NCBI GenBank assembly: GCA_976226885.1 | Contig: OZ320316.1 | Span: forward strand, 17,794,001 to 17,858,000 | Reading direction: 5' to 3' | Length of the DNA: 64,000 nucleotides | Origin: Iphione sp. A-MEVVRFRX5 | Lineage: Eukaryota | In this document: positions 30,403 through 40,999 of the stretch, piece by piece | Numbering within the stretch: position 1 is the first letter of the stretch | How the letters are laid out: each line of letters starts with the position of its first letter | Notes under the pieces: generated by a model | Seen by the model: the letters and a program-made list of their open reading frames with translations, nothing else | Database searches by the model: none | What the model was told of the DNA's origin: nothing | Translations under genes and position numbers: made by a program

Positions 30403-31158
30403 GTGAGTGTCCTCAGCTTTTAAATACATTATTCAATTCAACATCTACAATTATCAGAGTACAGAGAATCCAATGGGCTCATCTGTGATACTAAAGATAG
30501 TGTCAGAAAATAATAGAAGTACTGGCGATTCCCTCACAAAATTTGTAGCAAAATTTGTTAGCAATATCAGACACCTAGGACTGGGTGTTTTTGGCTTGGA
30601 AAAACAGAATATATCTTGTATTTGACACAGAACAAGTCAGGAGGATGTGAAAACGGATGTAAGCTTTCTATCTATTTCACAGCATCATGCTGACGTAAAA
30701 AGGTGATTGGTCCATCATAACCAGTATTCAAGTTATCCGACATAACTCTAAGCCGGATGTGTGGTGGCACACCTGCAACACACAACACACACTGAGCAAG
30801 AGGTGAAGGGATGTCATAACTGGTAATAGGTTAAGCATGAAAGTATGATGATAATCCAACAGATGTGTTTATCAAAAATAGAAACTATCAGTGCACTGCT
30901 GTGTGGTCGCACACTTTGCGTGTGACCTTCTCTCCAAATCATTCAGGGATCTCAATATCGGTCCACTGAATTAAATCTCAGACAGAAAAACAAAGTAACT
31001 TCAGAAGGATAAACAGTGGATGTAGAAACCCCATTCATAGGCACAGAATATCCCAACAACTGCTACACCCTCTTCAACTCTCACTTAGGAGATCACCTCT
31101 GGGACTGGAGTAATCTGGTCTCTAGTCAGGTCTCCCCCTGCTATCTGGTCTACCCTGT

Positions 31159-31251
31159 AGCAGCAGTATAGTAGCAATAGCCCCACTGGGGGGTGTACTT
31201 TAAACCCCACCTGGGTCAGATCGATTTTTAGCCCCACCATCAGTGCTCCCT
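31159..31251 (+). repeat. Left TIR of the Polinton-type element
   Basis: Exact reverse complement of 39263-39355. Confidence 0.97.
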
Positions 31252-31429
31252 CCCTCCCCCACCTCCTTCACACATGTGAGGACGTATGTTATCTGTTATC
31301 AGAGAGATTTAGTCTAGATAACACTGAGCTTCGATTTTAGCATGTAGTGTGTGGTAAAGTGACATAAAAATAGTAGGATCTTATCTTGATAAAAGCAAAT
31401 GTCATGTTCTTTTAGATGTGAGAAATCAA

Positions 31430-33150
31430 TGCCGCTTGCCGCTCAACGCTTGCCAATCGGCGATTACGATCGCCATTTTAATATATTTAGAATCATGATA
31501 AAAACAAACGGATTTCGGATTCGAAAAGAGCAGACTCTTAGCGTTCTGTACATATAAAGTTTATGAAAATCGATCAAGTAGAAGTGATAGTTCTGGTCAC
31601 ATTTATACAACCACTGTCAAACCCTTTACATAGTCGGCCGCTACCCTACCGACCGCTATCCCGTCGGCGAATCCGCTCGCCAATTTGAGGAATTTACAAT
31701 AAAGATACAGACAAATGGATTTCAGATTAGAAGAGAGCAGACTGTCAGCTTTCTGAAGATATAAAGTTTATGAAAATCGGTCAATTAGAAGTAGTGTTCT
31801 GGGCTACTTGAGTAGAACCACCCTAAAATACAAATTATGCCGCTCATACAGTCGGCCGTTTTCCGATTGGCATTACGTTTTGTATGATTACGAACAGGTC
31901 AGTAGGGATAGAGAAATATAGATTGCAGATTTGAAACGCCCAAGCTCTGGGCTTTTTGAAGATATAAAGTTTATGAAAATCGGATAATTAGAAGTGGTGA
32001 TAAAAATTTCTTTTCATACCCAATGTCAAATCAATTACATGGGTGGCCGCTACCCTGCCGTCCGTTTTCTGATTGGCGATTACGCTCGCCATTTTCATGT
32101 ACTTAGAATAAAGATAGAGACAAACGGATTTCAGATCTGAAATGCCCAGAGTATCATCTTTCTGTAGAAATAAAGTTTATGAAACTCGGCTAAGCAAAAG
32201 TGTGCTTTTTGGCTACTTTAGTACACCCACCCTAAAATGCACATTATGCTGCATAGTCGGCTGTTTTCCGATCAGTGATTATGCTTGCCAAAATGAAGTA
32301 TTGATAATGCATTTACATCAAAACTTACATTTGTGAAAAGAGCAGACCCTCAGCATTTTAATGGTGGTTGAATCGTTTAGATCAGATAATTAGAAGTAGT
32401 ATTTTTGGCTACCTTAGGAGACCCACCCTACCATGTGTGTTTATTATTATCCGGTCGGCCGCTTGCCAATGGGTGATACGTTTTCTATTATTATGACTCT
32501 TGTAGCACAGATAGAGAAACATGGATTTCAGATTTGAAAAAAGCAGGCTCTTAATATTCTGTAGATATAAAATATGTGTAAATACGATCATTGGAAGTGT
32601 GGTTTGGGCTACTTTAGTGCACCTACCATAAAATACACATTATGCCACTCGTACAGTCGGCTGCATCCCAGTTGATGATTACGCTCGCCATTTTCAGATA
32701 TTTACCTTACAGATAGAGAAAAATGAATTCCAGATTCAAAAAGAAGATACTCTTAGCTTTTTGTAGATATAAATTATATGAAAATCAGACAAGTGGTCTT
32801 TCCTCCCACTTTAGTACACCCACTGTCAAACCAATTACATGGTCAGCACTACCCTGTCAGCTGCTTTCCGATTGGCGTTATGTTTGCTATTACAAGCAAA
32901 TCAGTAATGATCTGAATACAGCATACCCCCAGCTCTTTGTAGTTTTTCCCCGGATCAAAATGGCAAAGCAGAATAATGAATACCTTTGTAGACCTACTCT
33001 AACTTGTGGTTTTTCCACTATCCTACCGGTCACTCCCTGCTCCCAGATTGGCAAATCCACTCCCCCATAGGAGGCACTTATACTATAGATAGAGACCCTC
33101 AGCTTTCTGCAGATACAAAGTTTATGTCAATCGGATGAGTAGAAGTACAT
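31430..33150. repeat. Degenerate ~200-bp tandem array (about 8 units) inside the Polinton left end
   Basis: Anchor GATATAAAGTTTATGAAAATCGG variants at 31551, 31758, 31961, 32167, 32564, 32766 and 33112, with shared GGATTTCAGAT and CGATTGGCGATTACGCTCGCC motifs. Confidence 0.85.
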
Positions 33151-33556
33151 CCACTATCGGTAGATTATGCAGTCACCAACCACTACTAAGAGCTAAAAAT
33201 GTCACATGTTCAGATGGGTATACTAAAGTTCCTTTCATTTGGATTAAAATTGGTCTTTTCTAGCTGGCATAAAAAAGGACTACAAATAGCTGAGAATCTC
33301 CTAGGTCTAATTTGTGCATTCTAAAAATAACTTTCTTAATGATGGGAATCTTGACTTGTCCGGAACACCCCATCTACAAAGATCTAAAGCCATAGCATAA
33401 TGCAGATCTGTATTTTTGGCTATCAGCTGCATACAAGTCTTTGTATCATCACAATTGGTACACTCTAGCCAATGGGTGTAATAGCTTGTGGACATTACAA
33501 AACATATCCATAATCCAATCCCTCCTCATTTGCCCTTCAGACACCAACCTGTTAAC

Positions 33557-35431
33557 ATGGGAAAAAAATATCATTGTGATTTGTGTAATGCAGACTTCTC
33601 CAGGAGGTTTTGCTTCAATCGCCATTGTAAAAGAAAGCACCCAAATTGTACTACAATGAGAGAACCTAATCCAGACATTATACTAGCACCAGCAATGACA
33701 CCAGCACTGGCACCAGCACCAGCACTGGCACCAGCACTGGCACCAGCACCAGCACTGGCAATGGCACCCGGTGTAACACCAGCACTAATGCCAGCACCAG
33801 CACTGGCACCAGCACCTGGTGTAACACCAGCACTGGCACCAACACCAGCACCGGCACCAGCACCTGGTGTAACACCAGCACCAGGTGTAACACCAGCACC
33901 AGCACCGGCACCCGGTGTAACACCAGCACCAGCACCGGCACCTGGTGTAACACCGGCACCAGCACCAGCACCGGCACCCAGTGTAACACCAGCACCAACA
34001 CCAGCACCAGCACCCAGTATAACACTGGCACCAGCACTGGCACCTGGTGTAACACCGGCACCAGCAACGTCACCCAGTGTAACACCGGCACCAGCACCCA
34101 GTGTAACACTGGCACCAGCACTGGCACCTGGTGTAACACTGGCACCAGCACCGGCACCCAGTGTAACACCACCAGCAGTACCCAGTGTAACATCAGCACT
34201 GGCACAGCCATATGATGTAACACCAAACATGACACATACTGAGGTGACATTTACTCATCCTTTTACCATGGTGATTGCTGGGCCTACTCAGTGTGGTAAG
34301 ACTACCTGGATCAAAAACTTGATTCAAAACCTACCAAATTGGATTCAGCCATGCCCGCAAAGAGTGGTGTGGTGTTATGCTCAGTGGCAACCCATGTATG
34401 AGTATATGAGTGGAGTAGAGTTTGTAAAAGGCCTACCTGCTACCCTAGAAGATGAAGGTTTCTTTGACCCTGAGGCACGGAACCTGCTTATTCTAGATGA
34501 TTTAATGACAGAGGTGGGAAAAGATCAAAGAATTACTCATCTGTATACGAGGGGTAGTCACCACCAAAACTTATCTGTCATAACTATTATGCAGAATTTC
34601 TTTGGTCCAGGGACAAAAACAATCAGGCGTAACTCACACTACATGGTACTCTTTGATATGCCAGCTGATAGACAGGAGGTTCATACTATTGCACAACAAA
34701 TGTTTCCAGGAAACCGAGATTGTCTTCTACACAAATACGAAGAAGCTGTATCTATTCCTTATGGACATTTAGTGGTGATTAACAAACCCAACATGCTTCC
34801 TCAGGACAGACTGCTGGCAAATCCTATAAAAGACCCTCAACTAACAGTGGTTACTCAGTCTGATTCAGACAGCCAACAAGTAAACATCTTAGACATGGCA
34901 TCTAATAGCTGTGTGAACACCTCACAAATGGAGTCTAATAGCAGTATGCAGAGGAAAAAGTTCCACCCTTGTGATGAGTGTGGGGCAGTGTATGGAAGCC
35001 TATATGACCTTTTCAGACATATGAGTCACTGTTTGGTGGAAACTCCGTCAAAGAAACCCAAGGTTGAGAGAGAGGATGATGACACTGAAGAAGAAGATTC
35101 TGATGTGGATATTACAGAAAATGCAACTTTTCAATGGATGTGGGATGCTGCCAAACAAGCAGAAGAGCAACAAGAAAAAGAGTTTTTCAAAATTTACAAA
35201 CAGTATCTTGACCAGGCTATAGATCTCAGAAATGACAAAACTACTAATGATATTTTAGACAAAGCTGAAGGATACATCAACAAAGGAGTAGATGAGTCCA
35301 GAGCTGTTAAGAAAGCACTAAAGAAACATAAATCACTATTTCAAGACCTGTTTGAGGATGATTCTAGTGATGACTCAGAGTCAGAGTCAGAAGAAGAGGA
35401 GAAAGAGGAAGAGGAGGAGAAGGATATATAA
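33557..35431 (+). CDS. C2H2 finger + Pro/Ala (GVTPAPAPAP) repeats + Polinton A32/FtsK-like packaging ATPase + second Cys/His finger + acidic helical domain (624 aa from ATG 33557)
   Basis: HPFTMVIAGPTQCGKT (Walker A), LLILDD (Walker B), TRGSHHQNLSVITIMQN, RRNSHYMVLF and PYGHL; CDLCNADFSRRFCFNRHCKRKH; CDECGAVYGSLYDLFRHMSHC. The frame is uninterrupted. Confidence 0.9.
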   Translation: MGKKYHCDLCNADFSRRFCFNRHCKRKHPNCTTMREPNPDIILAPAMTPALAPAPALAPALAPAPALAMAPGVTPALMPAPALAPAPGVTPALAPTPAPAPAPGVTPAPGVTPAPAPAPGVTPAPAPAPGVTPAPAPAPAPSVTPAPTPAPAPSITLAPALAPGVTPAPATSPSVTPAPAPSVTLAPALAPGVTLAPAPAPSVTPPAVPSVTSALAQPYDVTPNMTHTEVTFTHPFTMVIAGPTQCGKTTWIKNLIQNLPNWIQPCPQRVVWCYAQWQPMYEYMSGVEFVKGLPATLEDEGFFDPEARNLLILDDLMTEVGKDQRITHLYTRGSHHQNLSVITIMQNFFGPGTKTIRRNSHYMVLFDMPADRQEVHTIAQQMFPGNRDCLLHKYEEAVSIPYGHLVVINKPNMLPQDRLLANPIKDPQLTVVTQSDSDSQQVNILDMASNSCVNTSQMESNSSMQRKKFHPCDECGAVYGSLYDLFRHMSHCLVETPSKKPKVEREDDDTEEEDSDVDITENATFQWMWDAAKQAEEQQEKEFFKIYKQYLDQAIDLRNDKTTNDILDKAEGYINKGVDESRAVKKALKKHKSLFQDLFEDDSSDDSESESEEEEKEEEEEKDI

Positions 35432-35470
35432 AATGTCTTCACTTTCTGTAATATAATAGAAGATGTCTGA

Positions 35471-35674
35471 AACAGAGAACTCCCCAGCATACAACAGATA
35501 CCACATGATTTTTTCCAAGGAACAGGTCATGCAGACTTATCAATCATTGATCAGTTTCCAGTCACAAGAAAGGAAGTCAGTATTATCACAATACATATTA
35601 AGGATGAACAGTTAGAATTCGCACCATTAGTAGACCAGCCGTCAACCTGTACACTTCATTTCTTTAGAAAATGA
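35471..35674 (+). pseudogene. C-terminal remnant of the Polinton minor capsid (penton-like) protein
   Basis: QFPVTRKEVSIITIHIKDEQLEFAPLVDQPSTCTLHFFRK* fits the Y.PV...I.I.I.D...PF...TLHF(R) ending; the N-terminus is missing. Confidence 0.6.
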
Positions 35675-35997
35675 GTGCCAATATGTGGAAAAAACATTTC
35701 AAAGCCATGTTAGAAGGAAAGATACGTCCAGACAAAAATGGAATATGGCAAGTAAAGGACACTGCTGCACAAGATGGTGAACCTCCAGCAATCATCAAAG
35801 TAGTTAGTAATACTCAACAGGCAGTGGAACAAGCAAAAAACAAGACACAGAATCAAAAGAGGAAACTTCTTATGCTTTATTCTCAGAACAAGAAGAGGAA
35901 GACAGCTAATCAAAACAAGAGAAAATCTACCACCAAAAGCCATCAGTCTACTCCAAAACATCACTGGAAAATGTTACCACCAAAAAAAAGTCTTTAG
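35671..35997 (+). CDS. Small basic (Lys-rich) Polinton protein, possible DNA-binding core protein
   Basis: MSANMWKKHFKAM...VVSNTQQAVEQAK...KRK; the ATG overlaps the upstream stop (ATGA); lies between the minor and major capsid remnants. Confidence 0.65.
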   Translation: MSANMWKKHFKAMLEGKIRPDKNGIWQVKDTAAQDGEPPAIIKVVSNTQQAVEQAKNKTQNQKRKLLMLYSQNKKRKTANQNKRKSTTKSHQSTPKHHWKMLPPKKSL

Positions 35998-36002
35998 TCT
36001 AA

Positions 36003-37043
36003 ATGCAATGGCAGACAATTCTAAAAAAAGATAGCTGGCCATAACAATAATATGTCCTTGTTCTGTACATCTGTGAAAGACACGTCTACGGAATGGGGAG
36101 AGTACTGACCTGTGAGTCAACTAAGCTCAGACAGTGCCTTGGAATTCAATGTTTCTGGTAACATTACCAAGTACATGGACTTACAAAACACAACTGAAAA
36201 TCAAGTTTCAAATTCTTCAAGGCGATAGCAAAACACTACCAGCAATACCAGAGGCACCAAAACCTACTCCAAAAGCTGCCAAAGTAGGTCCAATCAACCT
36301 GTTTCTAAAAAAAACATGTGGTACTAATTAGATGTGTCTTCAACAACAAGCTGTTTCACCAAATATGGCAACACACCATCCCTACAAGGCTTATATCAAA
36401 ATTCTTCTGAATTATGGATGTGATGGCAAGGAATCACAACTGCAGTCCCAATTTTATTCCAAAGACACTAATGTAGATCCAGTGAATGGAAGCAATGCAG
36501 ATCTATGGAAAGTAAAATCATTGATATGGAGGGTGCAGTCTACATGGATATATATGTCTTGAATGCAGTTTAGGTCAGTTTTAAATTCTGGCAAAGTTCT
36601 AACCACCTAAAAAACTTGTTATTGGATTTGTGTCATCTGAGGGATTCATTTGAAACTACACAAAGAATCCATTCTTTTTCCAAACTTATAATTGTAACTT
36701 CATTGGTTTCTATGTAGATGGGAAGTCTATGTCTGAAGAACCACTGTGTCCTAATTATGTGGCAAAAAATTATTTATCCTCATATATGACACTGTTTGGA
36801 GATAATTCAAATTCTGGTAATTACATTTCAAGAGATGAATATTTAAAAGGCTATTGTTTATACATGTTTGATGTCTGTCAGAATAATTGTGACAAGTTTG
36901 TACAAAATGTAAGAAGGGGTCATACTAGACTAGAAGTAAAATTCTCTGACCCATTACCAGAAGCTGTAACTATGATCTTTGCTAAATTTCCAGGCATGTT
37001 GGAAATTCATCAGACCCATAATGTAGAAAATCATGTAATGTAG
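36003..37043 (+). pseudogene. Polinton major capsid protein (double jelly-roll type), frameshifted and internally deleted
   Basis: LEFNVSG..KYMDLQNT / LKIKFQI / VGPINLFL / HPYKAYIKILLNYG.DGKESQLQSQFYSKDT, and C-terminal SYMTLF..GNYISRDEYLKGYCLYMFD...RLEVKFSDPLPEAVT, spread over several frames. Confidence 0.85.
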
Positions 37044-37187
37044 CTCTGTGGATTAGCCATGTATTTGATGCTTTTATTGATTCTAGTAATATGAATTAGA
37101 ATGTAAACATGTTTCTAGATCAAATAAAGAAGAAAGAATGTCAATCATCGTTTTAATTTTTTCTGTACATAAGAACAAAATAAGTAA

Positions 37188-37511
37188 CTAAGCCAAGGTG
37201 ATAAAATCATTTTCAGGATTTATTTCATATACAACATTTGGTATTTCTCCTCTTTTGGGAATATTATTTTCCATATCATCATACAGTGGCTGCCACACTC
37301 CATAACAATAAAGAATAGATTGGGGTGGATCTTTCTCAAACATACCTGGCAAGTTCTGTAGCAATCGATAAGTCCAGTAAGTCTTTCCACTACCTGTGCA
37401 GCCAACAACACAGATACTAGATCTAGGTTTGAATGGTAACAAACTTTGCGTTTTCCACCACTCTTTGTTACACCCTTTGCCATCCCTGCTCTGAAGTGAT
37501 TCCTTTGACAT
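37188..37511 (-). pseudogene. Truncated second packaging ATPase (N-terminal third only)
   Basis: FKPRSSICVVGCTGSGKTYW (Walker A)...ILYCYGVWQPLY; no Walker B before the stop. Confidence 0.8.
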
Positions 37512-37610
37512 CCTGAATTCAACTACTGTGGTTTTACACTAGTACATTTCTTTTAAGGAAGAGAAACACATGGTTTGGTTTTGAAACATTTATTTCATCA
37601 TACATATCTT

Positions 37611-38987
37611 TCAACAATCACAATCTTCCACAGACTTCATCTTTTTCACATTTTCCATTGCTTTTTCAACAAGGTCATCATACATTGTGTCATTTGACTT
37701 TTTCTCTAACATCTCTTTTAACAAATCCACATTTTCTAGAACACGGTGAACCCAAAACTGACCATACTGAAGGGGTCTGAGATCTAGGATATGCCTACAT
37801 TCAACATACAAAGCCATAATAATAGCTTTAGTGATCTGCTGTTTGGCTTCATCTAGATGATGGAGAATTTTACTCTCCCATTCATCGAGACAACTTCCCA
37901 TACCCATGTGAGCCTCTTGTCCTTGTGCATCGATTTCACAACCAACACATGTTTCATGACTCAACCTTCCAATATCGTCTTGTAACAAGTGACATGCACA
38001 GTGAAGCATTAGTTTGAATGGACTCACATCATCTTCAGCAACATAGTCCCTTTGTGTTACCCTTCCAACAGCATCGGCATAATGTTTCTCAGTCTTCTCA
38101 TTCAGCAACATCTCTTTCAATATATCATCTTGATGAAGACAATTACGAGCTGTGCCTGCCACAAATATGTCTGGTGGCATATTCAATACTCTCCTGCATT
38201 CTGTATACAATGAAACAAGAGAAGAAACACACAGGGTTCTCTTTACATCACGGTAATGAAACTGCACCTTATGCTTCCATACATCTAGACAACCACCTTT
38301 AGATCTGTGGTCATCATCTTGCTTGAACACATCACATCCTGGACATGCTGCATTTGACATACGAGTGATACCTTTATGTAACATGTGATAGACACAATGT
38401 AACATCAACCTGTCTGAGCCTTGACCATTACCAGAAGGTATGATCTCCCTTCCTTCACCAGAACCTTCCATGGATCGCTCACATGCTGGTATCCGTTGTA
38501 GAAAGTCTTTCAACTGATCCCACTCACTAAATTTCAAAGCTATACCATGTCGAGTGGGAATTAAATCCTTTCCATTATCAAACAGCCTCGGTGAAAACTC
38601 ACGAATGTTCACACATCTGTACTGACTGTCCAAAGAGACGTACATGTCTCCCAGCAAATGAATCATCTCTCGAGAGACACACTCGTTATTGTCAATTTTC
38701 ACCAACACATCATCGATATCAGTCATTCGCTGCTCCAGGTTCAACCAGTTCTGTAGGGAAAGGGTCACTCCCTTCTCTGGGTGTGGTCGCCAGATATCTT
38801 GACTGACATCCTTCTCCCATAGTCGGATGGACAGTGTATTATTATGACAGGTCACCTTGACCCATCGATCCTTTCCAATATTGACACGTATAGGAGAATC
38901 AACGATGTCCTCGTCATTCGACACAGGTTCCGGTGACATTCTCTTGGGTGAACCTATCACAGCTTCAGTAGACATTGTGCGCTTCAT
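37611..38987 (-). CDS. 458-aa protein with two PC4-like ssDNA-binding domains and two copies of a ~125-aa Cys/His module
   Basis: IGKDRWVKV..SIRLW..KGVTLSLQNWLNL and YVSL..VNIREF..IPTRHGIALKFSEWDQL; the module MLHC...CxGC...H...CLD.W...LY.ECR..L...LKEML occurs twice. Predicted 5' UTR intron 38989-39144. Confidence 0.8.
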   Translation of the reverse strand: MKRTMSTEAVIGSPKRMSPEPVSNDEDIVDSPIRVNIGKDRWVKVTCHNNTLSIRLWEKDVSQDIWRPHPEKGVTLSLQNWLNLEQRMTDIDDVLVKIDNNECVSREMIHLLGDMYVSLDSQYRCVNIREFSPRLFDNGKDLIPTRHGIALKFSEWDQLKDFLQRIPACERSMEGSGEGREIIPSGNGQGSDRLMLHCVYHMLHKGITRMSNAACPGCDVFKQDDDHRSKGGCLDVWKHKVQFHYRDVKRTLCVSSLVSLYTECRRVLNMPPDIFVAGTARNCLHQDDILKEMLLNEKTEKHYADAVGRVTQRDYVAEDDVSPFKLMLHCACHLLQDDIGRLSHETCVGCEIDAQGQEAHMGMGSCLDEWESKILHHLDEAKQQITKAIIMALYVECRHILDLRPLQYGQFWVHRVLENVDLLKEMLEKKSNDTMYDDLVEKAMENVKKMKSVEDCDC

Positions 38988-39262
38988 TCTGAAAAAAAAT
39001 CAAATTCTGTAAGTACCAATACTATGTATATACCAACGTATAGCAATTTGATCAATATGACAAAATGCAAATTCTGTAAGTACCAATACTATATATATAT
39101 GCCAACGTATAGCAATTTGATCAATATGACAAAATGCAACTTACCTGAATTGAATATGGCTGTCTGTTGAAGACTGTCGTACCTGTATCACACTCCATAT
39201 TATATGGTCCTAACTCATTTGCATATTACCCAGAATGCAATTACCCAGAATGCACGACAGAT

Positions 39263-39358
39263 AGGGAGCACTGATGGTGGGGCTAAAAATCGATCTGACC
39301 CAGGTGGGGTTTAAAGTACACCCCCCAGTGGGGCTATTGCTACTATACTGCTGCTGCT
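39263..39358 (-). repeat. Right TIR of the Polinton-type element
   Basis: Exact reverse complement of the left TIR plus one extra AGC unit. Confidence 0.97.
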
Positions 39359-40999
39359 CCCTGTGATCTGGTCTTCAATTGAGAGTCGACTCTACTACGT
39401 AAATGGAACTCCAGTGAGGTCCTTATACGTAGAGTGAGAATGGCTGCAGACAAGAGCACACACAGTAGACCGTGACAACACGAGAAGAGCAGTTCTCATT
39501 TCTCAATGCATTCGCCTGAATGTATGTATGTATGTATATATGTATGTATCTGTGGTGTATAATATGTAACCATGCATTTCATAACTGCATCTCATCTTAC
39601 AGAAAGTAACTGACAGCAAAGCCCGGCATTATGTAAAGGTTATCCGGTATGTAAACACTAAATAACAAAAACAAAGCATCTCGGTGATTTGTGGTATATG
39701 GTTTCGGTCCTCTGTAGATGGCGCGGGGTGGCGGGGGGGGGCGGGATTCCGTGAGGGATGACCTTAATACACGCTTCGACACAGACACACACACACACAC
39801 ACACACACACAATAAGGCGTGCGCGGTGGCGGTGGTGGTGGTGTCTGTAGCAATGTGCATAGACCAGTTTTGTGAGGGGAAATCCCCACCACTGACGGCC
39901 ATCCTGTTTCCTGTCCCAGTCATGGTCCCTAATTGAAGGCTACTCCATAATTTTGACTAAAAACCTCACTATTTTCCCTGCAATGATCTTTTTTGAAAAC
40001 TGGCAATCTAGTAGATGAGGCCATACTCTATCATTCAAGTTTGAAGCAAGTTTCTGTCTTATATTTTTCCATTTTTAGAAATGCTAGAGATTTCTTAAGA
40101 GGATATTTCTAAAAATTGGTGTCTCGTTGCTAGTGCCTGCCAGTGGACGATGGTATTTGGAAAATCCCATGGTTTACATGGACATATATTCTAATATATT
40201 TAAATAAGTATAATTACGGGCTAGAGATCTTGCCTCGTCATTCATCCTAATATAGCTGATGAGAATGGGAATTCCCACTGTACAATGTTTAGGAGGAACG
40301 CCCGAAGAACTAGCAATAGTGCGTGCGAAGGACAACAGGGGGAAAACCTGAATTATATAAAAAAGAAAAAAAAGAAAGAAAAGAAAACAAAGAAAGAAAA
40401 GAAAAAGAAAAAGAAAAAAAAGGAAAAAAACCCAGTCAAATCGGAGCCTCCAACAGGAGAATATCTTGTTTAATGCTGTCGTCATGGGTCGGAGTGGCTG
40501 GCGAAGGCAAAATCGCCCAAATTCCCAGTATGACCTCACTAATTTTGTTACCCAATGTTACCATCTTCTCCTGAACTGATAATGCTTGTAAAATACTATG
40601 AAGACGTCCCGCGGAAAGTATTGGAAGTAAACTAAATATGACAATGATACATGTGCGTGAATTCTTCCCTGAACTTGACCCCAGAAGTGCATTTTCTACA
40701 ATATCTTAGCACATGAGAATGCAATTTTAATCTTCCACAGAACAGTTTAGTAAACACTCAAATCTTTCATTATTCAAACTTGATATGACCTCTATTTAAT
40801 TGCAGCGAGTGGTCGTAAGCCTAGAGAAAATTATATTTCTATAATGACACAGAACGGCACTTAATTATATTCCCTAAGTAACACAATATAGCAGCTCGAG
40901 CTTGTATTCCTTCGGGAATATTTAAATAAATTTCCAAATGTTAAAATTTTTTTAAAAACGTGTTTATTCGATGTATTCACCTTCCATAGCCACCACAAC

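What the first reader, a model, noticed from the sequence alone, without database searches (positions are those of the whole stretch)
31159..39358. 8.2-kb mini-Polinton with perfect ends but no replication or integration genes: candidate satellite of an endogenous DNA virus
Seen: identical 93-bp TIRs, (AGC)n termini, a perfect 6-bp TSD (CCCTGT), Polinton-type ATPase and capsid sequences, and no recognisable pPolB, integrase or protease. Established: autonomous Polintons/Mavericks are usually ~15-25 kb, encode pPolB and a retroviral-like integrase, and make 6-bp TSDs. Inference: TIRs and TSD are unmutated while the capsid genes carry several frameshifts and deletions. The element may therefore have been mobilised in trans after it had decayed, as a non-autonomous satellite family that keeps only the termini and a few genes.
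Basis: partly seen in the sequence, partly recalled or inferred. Interest (0 to 1): 0.85.

Follow-up and report, generated by a model that had tools for sequence, protein, structure and literature searches.

The report
Polinton satellite that swaps helper ends
This is a small parasitic relative of the Polinton virus-like transposons that has no polymerase or integrase and broken capsid genes, keeps one DNA-packaging-type ATPase under selection, and carries ends taken from whichever full-size Polinton family it likely depends on, which would make it a satellite of an animal's endogenous DNA viruses.

Summary
Real, and more than a deleted copy. The 8.2-kb element has 93-bp TIRs (plus one extra terminal trinucleotide) and a true 6-bp TSD. 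It is a chimera. Its ends and right 2.1 kb are 99.4% identical to three full-size Polintons (family A). Its core is a zinc-finger ATPase related to a capsid-less Polinton family (D), followed by dead penton/MCP genes. A second copy (X, 7.2 kb) shares the junctions and 16 capsid-module indels, but has its own TSD and the ends of another family (G). Four older decayed copies share the architecture. So the lesions predate at least two insertions, which fits mobilisation in trans. The ATPase stayed under purifying selection after polymerase loss (dN/dS 0.05 window vs X; tips and stem about 0.1; private changes in old copies 1.05). Best reading: a long-lived helper-dependent satellite that recaptures termini from the active helper. 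That its ATPase packages it into helper capsids is inferred. Corrections: a short pPolB vestige exists, and the helpers show no protease either. The scan noted an ATPase-keeping mini-Polinton in a coral before (unchecked).

The parts
31153..31158 (.). Left 6-bp target-site duplication (CCCTGT)
   Evidence: single in 4 paralogous host-repeat copies printed
31159..31251 (+). Left TIR, 93 bp, family-A type; identity to A's left end runs to base 96
31447..33250 (+). Array of 8 diverged ~200-bp repeat units; the same repeat family occurs in Polinton families A, B, C, E, D and in X, not in the G copy or the window's flanks; no source closer than about 79%
33386..33512 (+). Non-coding vestige of the 3' end of a family-D pPolB; the same 5' boundary (within 6 bp) recurs in 3 older copies
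   Evidence: (X: 44% aa, E=1e-4)
33557..35431 (+). Intact 624-aa ORF: C2H2-like N-terminus, Ala-Pro-rich repeats, A32/IVa2-like ATPase, C2H2 zinc finger, acidic tail; related to family-D ATPase; under purifying selection
35432..35674 (+). Remnant of the putative penton (minor capsid) gene: first 55 codons absent, internal stop; lesion shared with X and older copies
   Evidence: penton label rests on position and an Atlas lead
35671..35997 (+). 109-aa basic ORF, truncated homologue of the helper's 139-aa protein
36031..37041 (+). Broken double-jelly-roll major capsid gene (frameshifts, stops, 229-bp deletion shared with X)
37042..37254 (.). Family-specific spacer; found at 3 of 3 candidate loci (window, X, one old copy)
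37255..39358 (.). Right arm captured from helper family A (99.2-99.5% identical)
37188..37511 (-). 107-aa ORF: first 85 codons of the helper ATPase, running into the spacer
37611..38987 (-). Intact 458-aa PC4-domain ORF from the helper arm (broken in X)
39263..39358 (-). Right TIR, 93 bp plus one extra terminal trinucleotide
39359..39364 (.). Right 6-bp target-site duplication (CCCTGT)

Best explanation
The element is a young insertion of an old chimeric Polinton lineage that has no polymerase or integrase and dead capsid genes, keeps a zinc-finger ATPase under purifying selection, carries ends from different full-size families in different copies, and is likely replicated and integrated in trans by those helpers and likely packaged into their capsids by its own ATPase. 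Steps. (1) Shown: the core joins a D-type pPolB tail and ATPase to a penton-core-MCP module; polymerase, integrase and the penton 5' end were lost before the copies radiated. (2) Shown: two young copies share the lesions but have different TSDs and termini (A and G); an old copy has a third TIR type. (3) Inferred: during co-replication with an active helper, recombination replaces the right arm up to the end of homology and the left end at the TIR or in the repeat array, giving an origin and integrase site that match the current helper. (4) Inferred: helper pPolB copies it (the extra terminal trinucleotide fits jumping-back initiation) and helper integrase inserts it with a 6-bp TSD. (5) Inferred, weakest (about 0.4): the ATPase binds the element's own DNA, perhaps the ~200-bp array beside the left TIR, and loads it into helper capsids, which would explain selection on a gene in a non-autonomous element.
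For: Helpers with 99-100% identical TIRs and their own TSDs: 3. Window and X share 16 indels against family A in the capsid module, versus 6 and 5 private. The arm follows A at 268 of 274 A/G diagnostic sites and X follows G at 247 of 274 (138 and 120 of 143 without the two poorly aligned terminal bins); there are no shared private sites. X's left 238 bp is 98.3% and its right arm 97.7% identical to G. ATPase domain 16 synonymous/3 non-synonymous, dN/dS 0.05, p=4e-9, versus MCP N-part 11/24, 0.56 (Fisher p=4e-4). By branch: window tip 0.12, X tip 0.09, stem 0.10, satellite-vs-D 0.22, old-copy private changes 1.05. 6 of 7 chimeric-type ATPases form a starred clade apart from D (99/96). Three old copies share a different MCP deletion. 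One old copy ends its spacer at the same point and lacks the A arm. 0 of 20 D-like loci carry capsid genes.
Against: Only 2 young copies were found, and searches scored only 40 of 54-95 candidates. Synonymous divergence of the ATPase (16 of 122 sites) is about twice the total divergence in the dead MCP N-part (35 of 555), and X and the window differ by a mosaic tract in the MCP 3' part (27 vs 3 sites). So gene conversion from an unsampled donor could supply part of the selection signal. One old fragment (C2:75.79 Mb) falls outside the starred clade. No full-size family-G helper is in the assembly. The G copy lacks the repeat array yet has its own TSD, so the array is not needed for insertion. 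The third TIR type has no clear TSD. No virion, expression or binding data. The Pfam ATPase hit is under the cut-off.
Confidence: 0.65

Rival explanations
1. Same non-autonomous, end-swapping lineage, but the ATPase is kept because it interferes with helper packaging (a defective-interfering or host-protective element) or acts in replication, not to package the satellite.
For: Purifying selection says nothing about whose genome is served. Both young copies also keep a 107-aa truncated helper ATPase. Capsid-less family D keeps the same ATPase type intact, which could mean a non-packaging role.
Against: The truncated ATPase is re-supplied from the helper arm, so its retention is uninformative. 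Old integrated copies lose the ATPase neutrally (1.05), so the host is not preserving it in place.
Confidence: 0.2
2. Defective genomes are repeatedly patched by recombination with an unsampled autonomous D-like virus; the ATPase looks selected only because it is refreshed from that donor and has no role in the satellite.
For: Mosaic tract in the MCP 3' part; ATPase dS above the neutral level; whole-arm replacement shows recombination is frequent.
Against: Among the 20 D-like loci plus 3 other D copies the best identity is 88.6%, against 96.6% for X. Selection shows on four separate branches. The flanking pPolB-tail and penton junctions are shared back to copies about 20% diverged.
Confidence: 0.1
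3. A single family-A Polinton decayed in place by deletions, inversion and ectopic recombination.
For: Most vertebrate Maverick copies (96%) are defective fossils (PMC8097293, passages).
Against: A second locus has identical junctions and lesions with other termini and another TSD. The arm is 99.4% to A while the capsid remnants are 59-96% by bin. Older copies share the core.
Confidence: 0.03

Closest known systems
Polinton/Maverick elements (family A of this genome; PMC6431247, PMC5499653, passages)
   Same: TIRs with short terminal repeats, 6-bp TSD, A32-like ATPase, double-jelly-roll MCP lineage, PC4 arm; ends 99.4% identical to family A.
   Different: 8.2 kb instead of 15-25 kb; no pPolB or integrase gene; capsid genes dead; the functional ATPase comes from another Polinton type.
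Non-autonomous DNA transposon families and defective Mavericks (PMC8097293, PMC3014272 passages; non-autonomous Polintons in Kapitonov and Jurka 2006 recalled, paper not held)
   Same: Keeps termini and needs enzymes in trans; amplification after decay.
   Different: Not a deletion derivative of one parent: chimeric core, one gene under selection, termini replaced between helper families.
Tlr1 elements and transpovirons (PMC5499653, passages)
   Same: Polinton-derived, linear with inverted ends, lacking pPolB (Tlr1) or capsid genes (transpovirons).
   Different: Tlr1 keeps capsids, ATPase and integrase; both encode an SF1 helicase, for which no hit appeared here; this element's helper is an endogenous Polinton, not a giant virus.
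Phage satellites (PICI/SaPI, P4, PLE; PMC11417361 seen as search listing only, rest recalled)
   Same: Works like one: small integrated element, helper-supplied capsid, own packaging-related gene.
   Different: Eukaryotic and unrelated in sequence; has no integrase or replication gene of its own; packaging role is untested.

Membership tests
Autonomous Polinton/Maverick | Encodes protein-primed PolB | tested here: not met
   Only a ~125-bp non-coding D-type 3' vestige; profile hits otherwise weak, best in the window iE 0.04 over the PC4 frame region
Autonomous Polinton/Maverick | Encodes retroviral-like integrase | tested here: not met
   No hit in six frames with a 6-sequence profile or tblastn
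Autonomous Polinton/Maverick | TIRs and 6-bp TSD | tested here: met
Autonomous Polinton/Maverick | Intact double-jelly-roll MCP and minor capsid protein | tested here: not met
   Homologous but broken; helper MCP fold confirmed; penton label only a lead (low recognition score)
Autonomous Polinton/Maverick | A32-like packaging ATPase | tested here: met
   Intact ORF; 33% to helper ATPase, E=8e-38; Pox_A32 and Adeno_IVa2 hits under cut-off
Autonomous Polinton/Maverick | Adenovirus-like cysteine protease | tested here: inconclusive
   None in the element or in 10 family-A ORFs; genome-wide search blank but its control rang nowhere
Non-autonomous Polinton family | Several independent insertions sharing the same lesions | tested here: met
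   2 young copies with distinct TSDs and 16 shared indels; 4 older copies
Non-autonomous Polinton family | Co-resident helper with matching termini | tested here: met
   3 family-A elements; for X only a truncated G copy
Viral satellite | Replication and integration by helper proteins | not testable with these tools
   Inferred from absent genes, matching ends and TSD
Viral satellite | Packaged in helper capsids | not testable with these tools
   No particle data
Tlr1 / transpoviron | SF1 helicase gene | tested here: not met
   No SF1-helicase-sized ORF or Pfam hit among the 9 ORFs scanned

The most novel reading that the evidence does not exclude
Animal Polintons have their own capsid-hijacking satellites in nested layers: a capsid-less but self-replicating family (D) and a fully dependent chimera. 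Both keep a zinc-finger packaging ATPase that recognises their own DNA and loads it into helper virions, and the chimera outlives any one helper family by swapping its termini for those of the currently active one. That would be a PICI-like strategy in an animal germ line and indirect evidence that Polinton particles form.
Probability: 0.35. Interest if true: 0.9.

Novelty: new variant of a known kind. Interest (0 to 1): 0.72.

Why it matters
Polinton virions in animals have not been observed, and the amplification of defective copies is called unexplained (10.1101/2023.08.22.554363 and PMC8097293, passages). A lineage with no polymerase, integrase or capsid that still keeps a packaging-type ATPase under selection, and re-arms itself with the current helper's ends, gives a concrete route for such amplification. 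It also gives a sequence-level prediction: 7-9-kb genomes inside particles made by 16-21-kb helpers. And it warns that perfect TIRs date the ends, not the element.

Tried and rejected
Sequencing runs: none was listed, so there was no empty-site or expression test; this is no evidence either way. Genome-wide protease search: blank with a silent control, uninformative. Search for a close source of the left array: none above about 79% (40 of 249 candidates scored). Search for a D-type element with capsid genes: 0 of 20 loci, 6 kb each. Termini of old copies: clear TIRs in 1 of 6, no clear TSD. Pfam gave no hit for MCP or penton. TSD as chance in a repetitive flank: rejected. Simple deletion of family A and in-place decay: rejected. 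Host domestication of the ATPase: rejected, since old copies decay neutrally. Literature: 9 searches showed no description of an end-swapping, ATPase-retaining Polinton satellite. Kapitonov and Jurka 2006 and Krupovic and Koonin 2015 were not held, no supplements were read, and Repbase-type catalogues were not searchable, so similar families may be catalogued there. One search stopped with an error after printing its identity tables, and three E-family arms were left out of it; one was included.

Full report
OBSERVATION. The element spans 31159-39358. Its TIRs are 93 nt and 100% complementary; the right end has one extra GCT. CCCTGT flanks both sides. The flanks belong to a high-copy host repeat; in the 4 paralogues printed, left and right flank run on with one copy of the motif, so this is a true TSD. 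There is no N in the element. It holds an array of 8 ~200-bp units, an intact 624-aa ATPase ORF, broken penton/core/MCP genes on the + strand, and on the - strand a truncated second ATPase and an intact 458-aa PC4-domain ORF. No integrase signal was found in six frames. The only polymerase trace is a non-coding 3' vestige near 33386-33512.

HELPERS. A TIR search gave 40 matches (40 of 42 candidates scored). Eight were 99-100% identical: the window's two ends and three elements of 17-21 kb, each with its own 6-bp TSD. Family A encodes a 1456-aa pPolB (DNA_pol_B_2), an integrase (rve plus chromo), an A32 ATPase, PC4 and a 432-aa MCP; two of the three copies show lesions in core genes. The MCP model (102-row alignment, pLDDT 92) matches PBCV-1, iridovirus, mavirus and Sputnik capsids at E 1e-15 to 1e-12. 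Only the left 96-107 bases and the right 2.1 kb (from 37255) of the window element are family A (99.2-99.5%). The capsid remnants lie inverted relative to A and are 59-96% identical to it by 150-bp bin.

THE CORE. The ATPase ORF is 83% identical overall (85-89% in the ATPase domain) to a different family, D: about 9-kb elements with TIRs, TSDs, polymerase-like ORF, ATPase and integrase, and no capsid genes in 0 of 20 loci examined. In the window the D-type polymerase is reduced to its tail, and the ATPase stop runs directly into a penton lacking its first 55 codons, where D has its integrase.

A SECOND YOUNG COPY. X (G000:C10:111707063-111714221, 7159 bp, TSD CCAAAA, 136-bp TIR, 97.8% self-identical) matches the core at about 92-97%. 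Window and X were the only loci spanning either junction among 40 of 77 and 40 of 95 candidates scored. Against family A they share 16 indels in the capsid module, including the 165-bp penton loss and a 229-bp MCP deletion; 6 are private to the window and 5 to X. The lesions therefore predate both insertions. X's ends belong to family G: left 238 bp 98.3%, right arm 97.7%. At sites where A and G differ, the window follows A at 268 of 274 and X follows G at 247 of 274 (138 and 120 of 143 without the two terminal bins, where alignment is poor). No site is private to both. The switch to A lies within about 40 bp of the junction.

OLDER COPIES. Six more loci were examined. Four carry the D-type ATPase followed by capsid remnants at 71-85% identity; two are fragments. 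Three loci share the pPolB-tail boundary with the window. Three share another MCP deletion. One ends its spacer at the same point as the window, then continues with a ~200-bp unit and not the helper arm, so the arm is a later capture. One has a third TIR type (109 bp, 79%) with no clear TSD. In a tree of 29 ATPase stretches (L110 and the C2:130.74-Mb fragment had none), 6 of 7 chimeric-type rows form a starred clade apart from D; the seventh is unresolved.

SELECTION. Window vs X: ATPase domain 16 synonymous, 3 non-synonymous (dN/dS 0.05, p=4e-9); C-terminus 0.21; core ORF 0.44 (not significant); MCP N-part 0.56 (not different from 1); MCP C-part 0.26, confounded by a mosaic tract. By branch, pN/pS is 0.12 (window), 0.09 (X), 0.10 (their stem) and 0.22 (satellites vs D), while private changes in five old copies give 1.05 pooled, range 0.45-6.8. 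So the ATPase was constrained while the lineage propagated and decayed once a copy was stranded. Caveat: ATPase synonymous divergence (16 of 122) exceeds the neutral level in the dead MCP N-part (35 of 555), so some imported variation cannot be excluded.

MECHANISM. Shown: absence of replication, integration and capsid function; repeated insertion after decay; different termini on one core; a selected ATPase. Inferred: replication by helper pPolB from the captured TIR (terminal short repeats serve jumping-back initiation, PMC8097293 passage; the extra trinucleotide fits), integration by helper integrase, and capture of ends by recombination during co-replication. Most speculative: the ATPase has zinc fingers that the 238-aa helper ATPase lacks and would select the satellite's own DNA for helper capsids. 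The analogy is adenovirus IVa2 binding a packaging signal beside the left ITR (recalled). Interference with the helper is the main rival. Against a needed array: the G copy lacks it yet inserted.

COMPARISON. It fails membership of autonomous Polintons, which by definition encode pPolB and integrase (PMC5499653, passages; sizes in PMC6431247, passages). It meets the tests for a non-autonomous family. Polymerase replacement and module mosaicism among Polintons are in print (10.1101/2023.08.22.554363 and 10.64898/2026.10.13.758929, passages). Non-autonomous copies were reported absent in anole (PMC3014272, passages). Amplified defective Mavericks are called perplexing. 10.1101/2025.02.07.637071 and PMC11414722 (passages) gave nothing on such elements. 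Nine searches found no end-swapping, ATPase-retaining Polinton satellite; the founding paper was not held, and I recall that it mentions non-autonomous Polintons. An unchecked note of this scan (e1-9906646) describes a 4.3-kb ATPase-keeping mini-Polinton in a coral: a lead for convergence, not support.

VERDICT. Observation confirmed with two corrections. Interpretation supported and extended. New variant of a known kind; interest 0.72. Helper dependence with end-swapping about 0.8, the packaging role about 0.4.

Noticed in passing
L053-L058, L093-L112 (e.g. G000:C13:66580831-66589643, C26:26897672-26906928): Family D: about 9-kb Polintons with 157-bp TIRs, 6-bp TSDs, a 1291-aa pPolB-like ORF, zinc-finger ATPase and integrase but no capsid genes (0 of 20 loci; 18 of 20 with integrase hits); more than 20 loci, many near-identical. 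The pPolB label rests on size, layout and my recall: Pfam gave only zinc-finger and Endonuclease VII hits.
   Followed up: partly
window 31447-33250; L031, L041, L044, L062, L053: A ~200-bp repeat forms arrays (4-15 units per element) in nearly all Polinton families here and is absent from the window's flanks; function unexplained.
   Followed up: partly
L070:513-9022 (G000:C4:66791013-66799522): 8.5-kb family-G copy with own TSD, capsid, integrase and ATPase genes but lacking the arrays and the first two thirds of pPolB: a second kind of candidate non-autonomous copy.
   Followed up: partly
L077:2825-8063 (G000:C1:550825-556063): D-derived fold-back element with 2.1-kb inverted arms (98%) and a 6-bp TSD, like a copy-back defective genome.
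   Followed up: no
P0003 (another genome): 719-aa protein that looks like the N-terminus of a D-type pPolB fused to the D-type ATPase, suggesting polymerase loss with ATPase retention elsewhere (read by eye).
   Followed up: no
L031-L033, L034-L038: Family A shows no recognisable protease ORF and carries two ORFs that look like membrane proteins with leucine-rich repeats (by eye; no Pfam hit). MCP relatives with names are molluscan 'F54H12.2-like' proteins at 38-47% identity.
   Followed up: partly
G000:C10:12347880-12394066 and C2:61998221-62043641: Two elements with family-B-like TIR pairs about 45-46 kb apart, twice the usual size.
   Followed up: no
window 38996-39139: 69-bp tandem duplication upstream of the PC4 ORF, shared with family A.
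   Followed up: no
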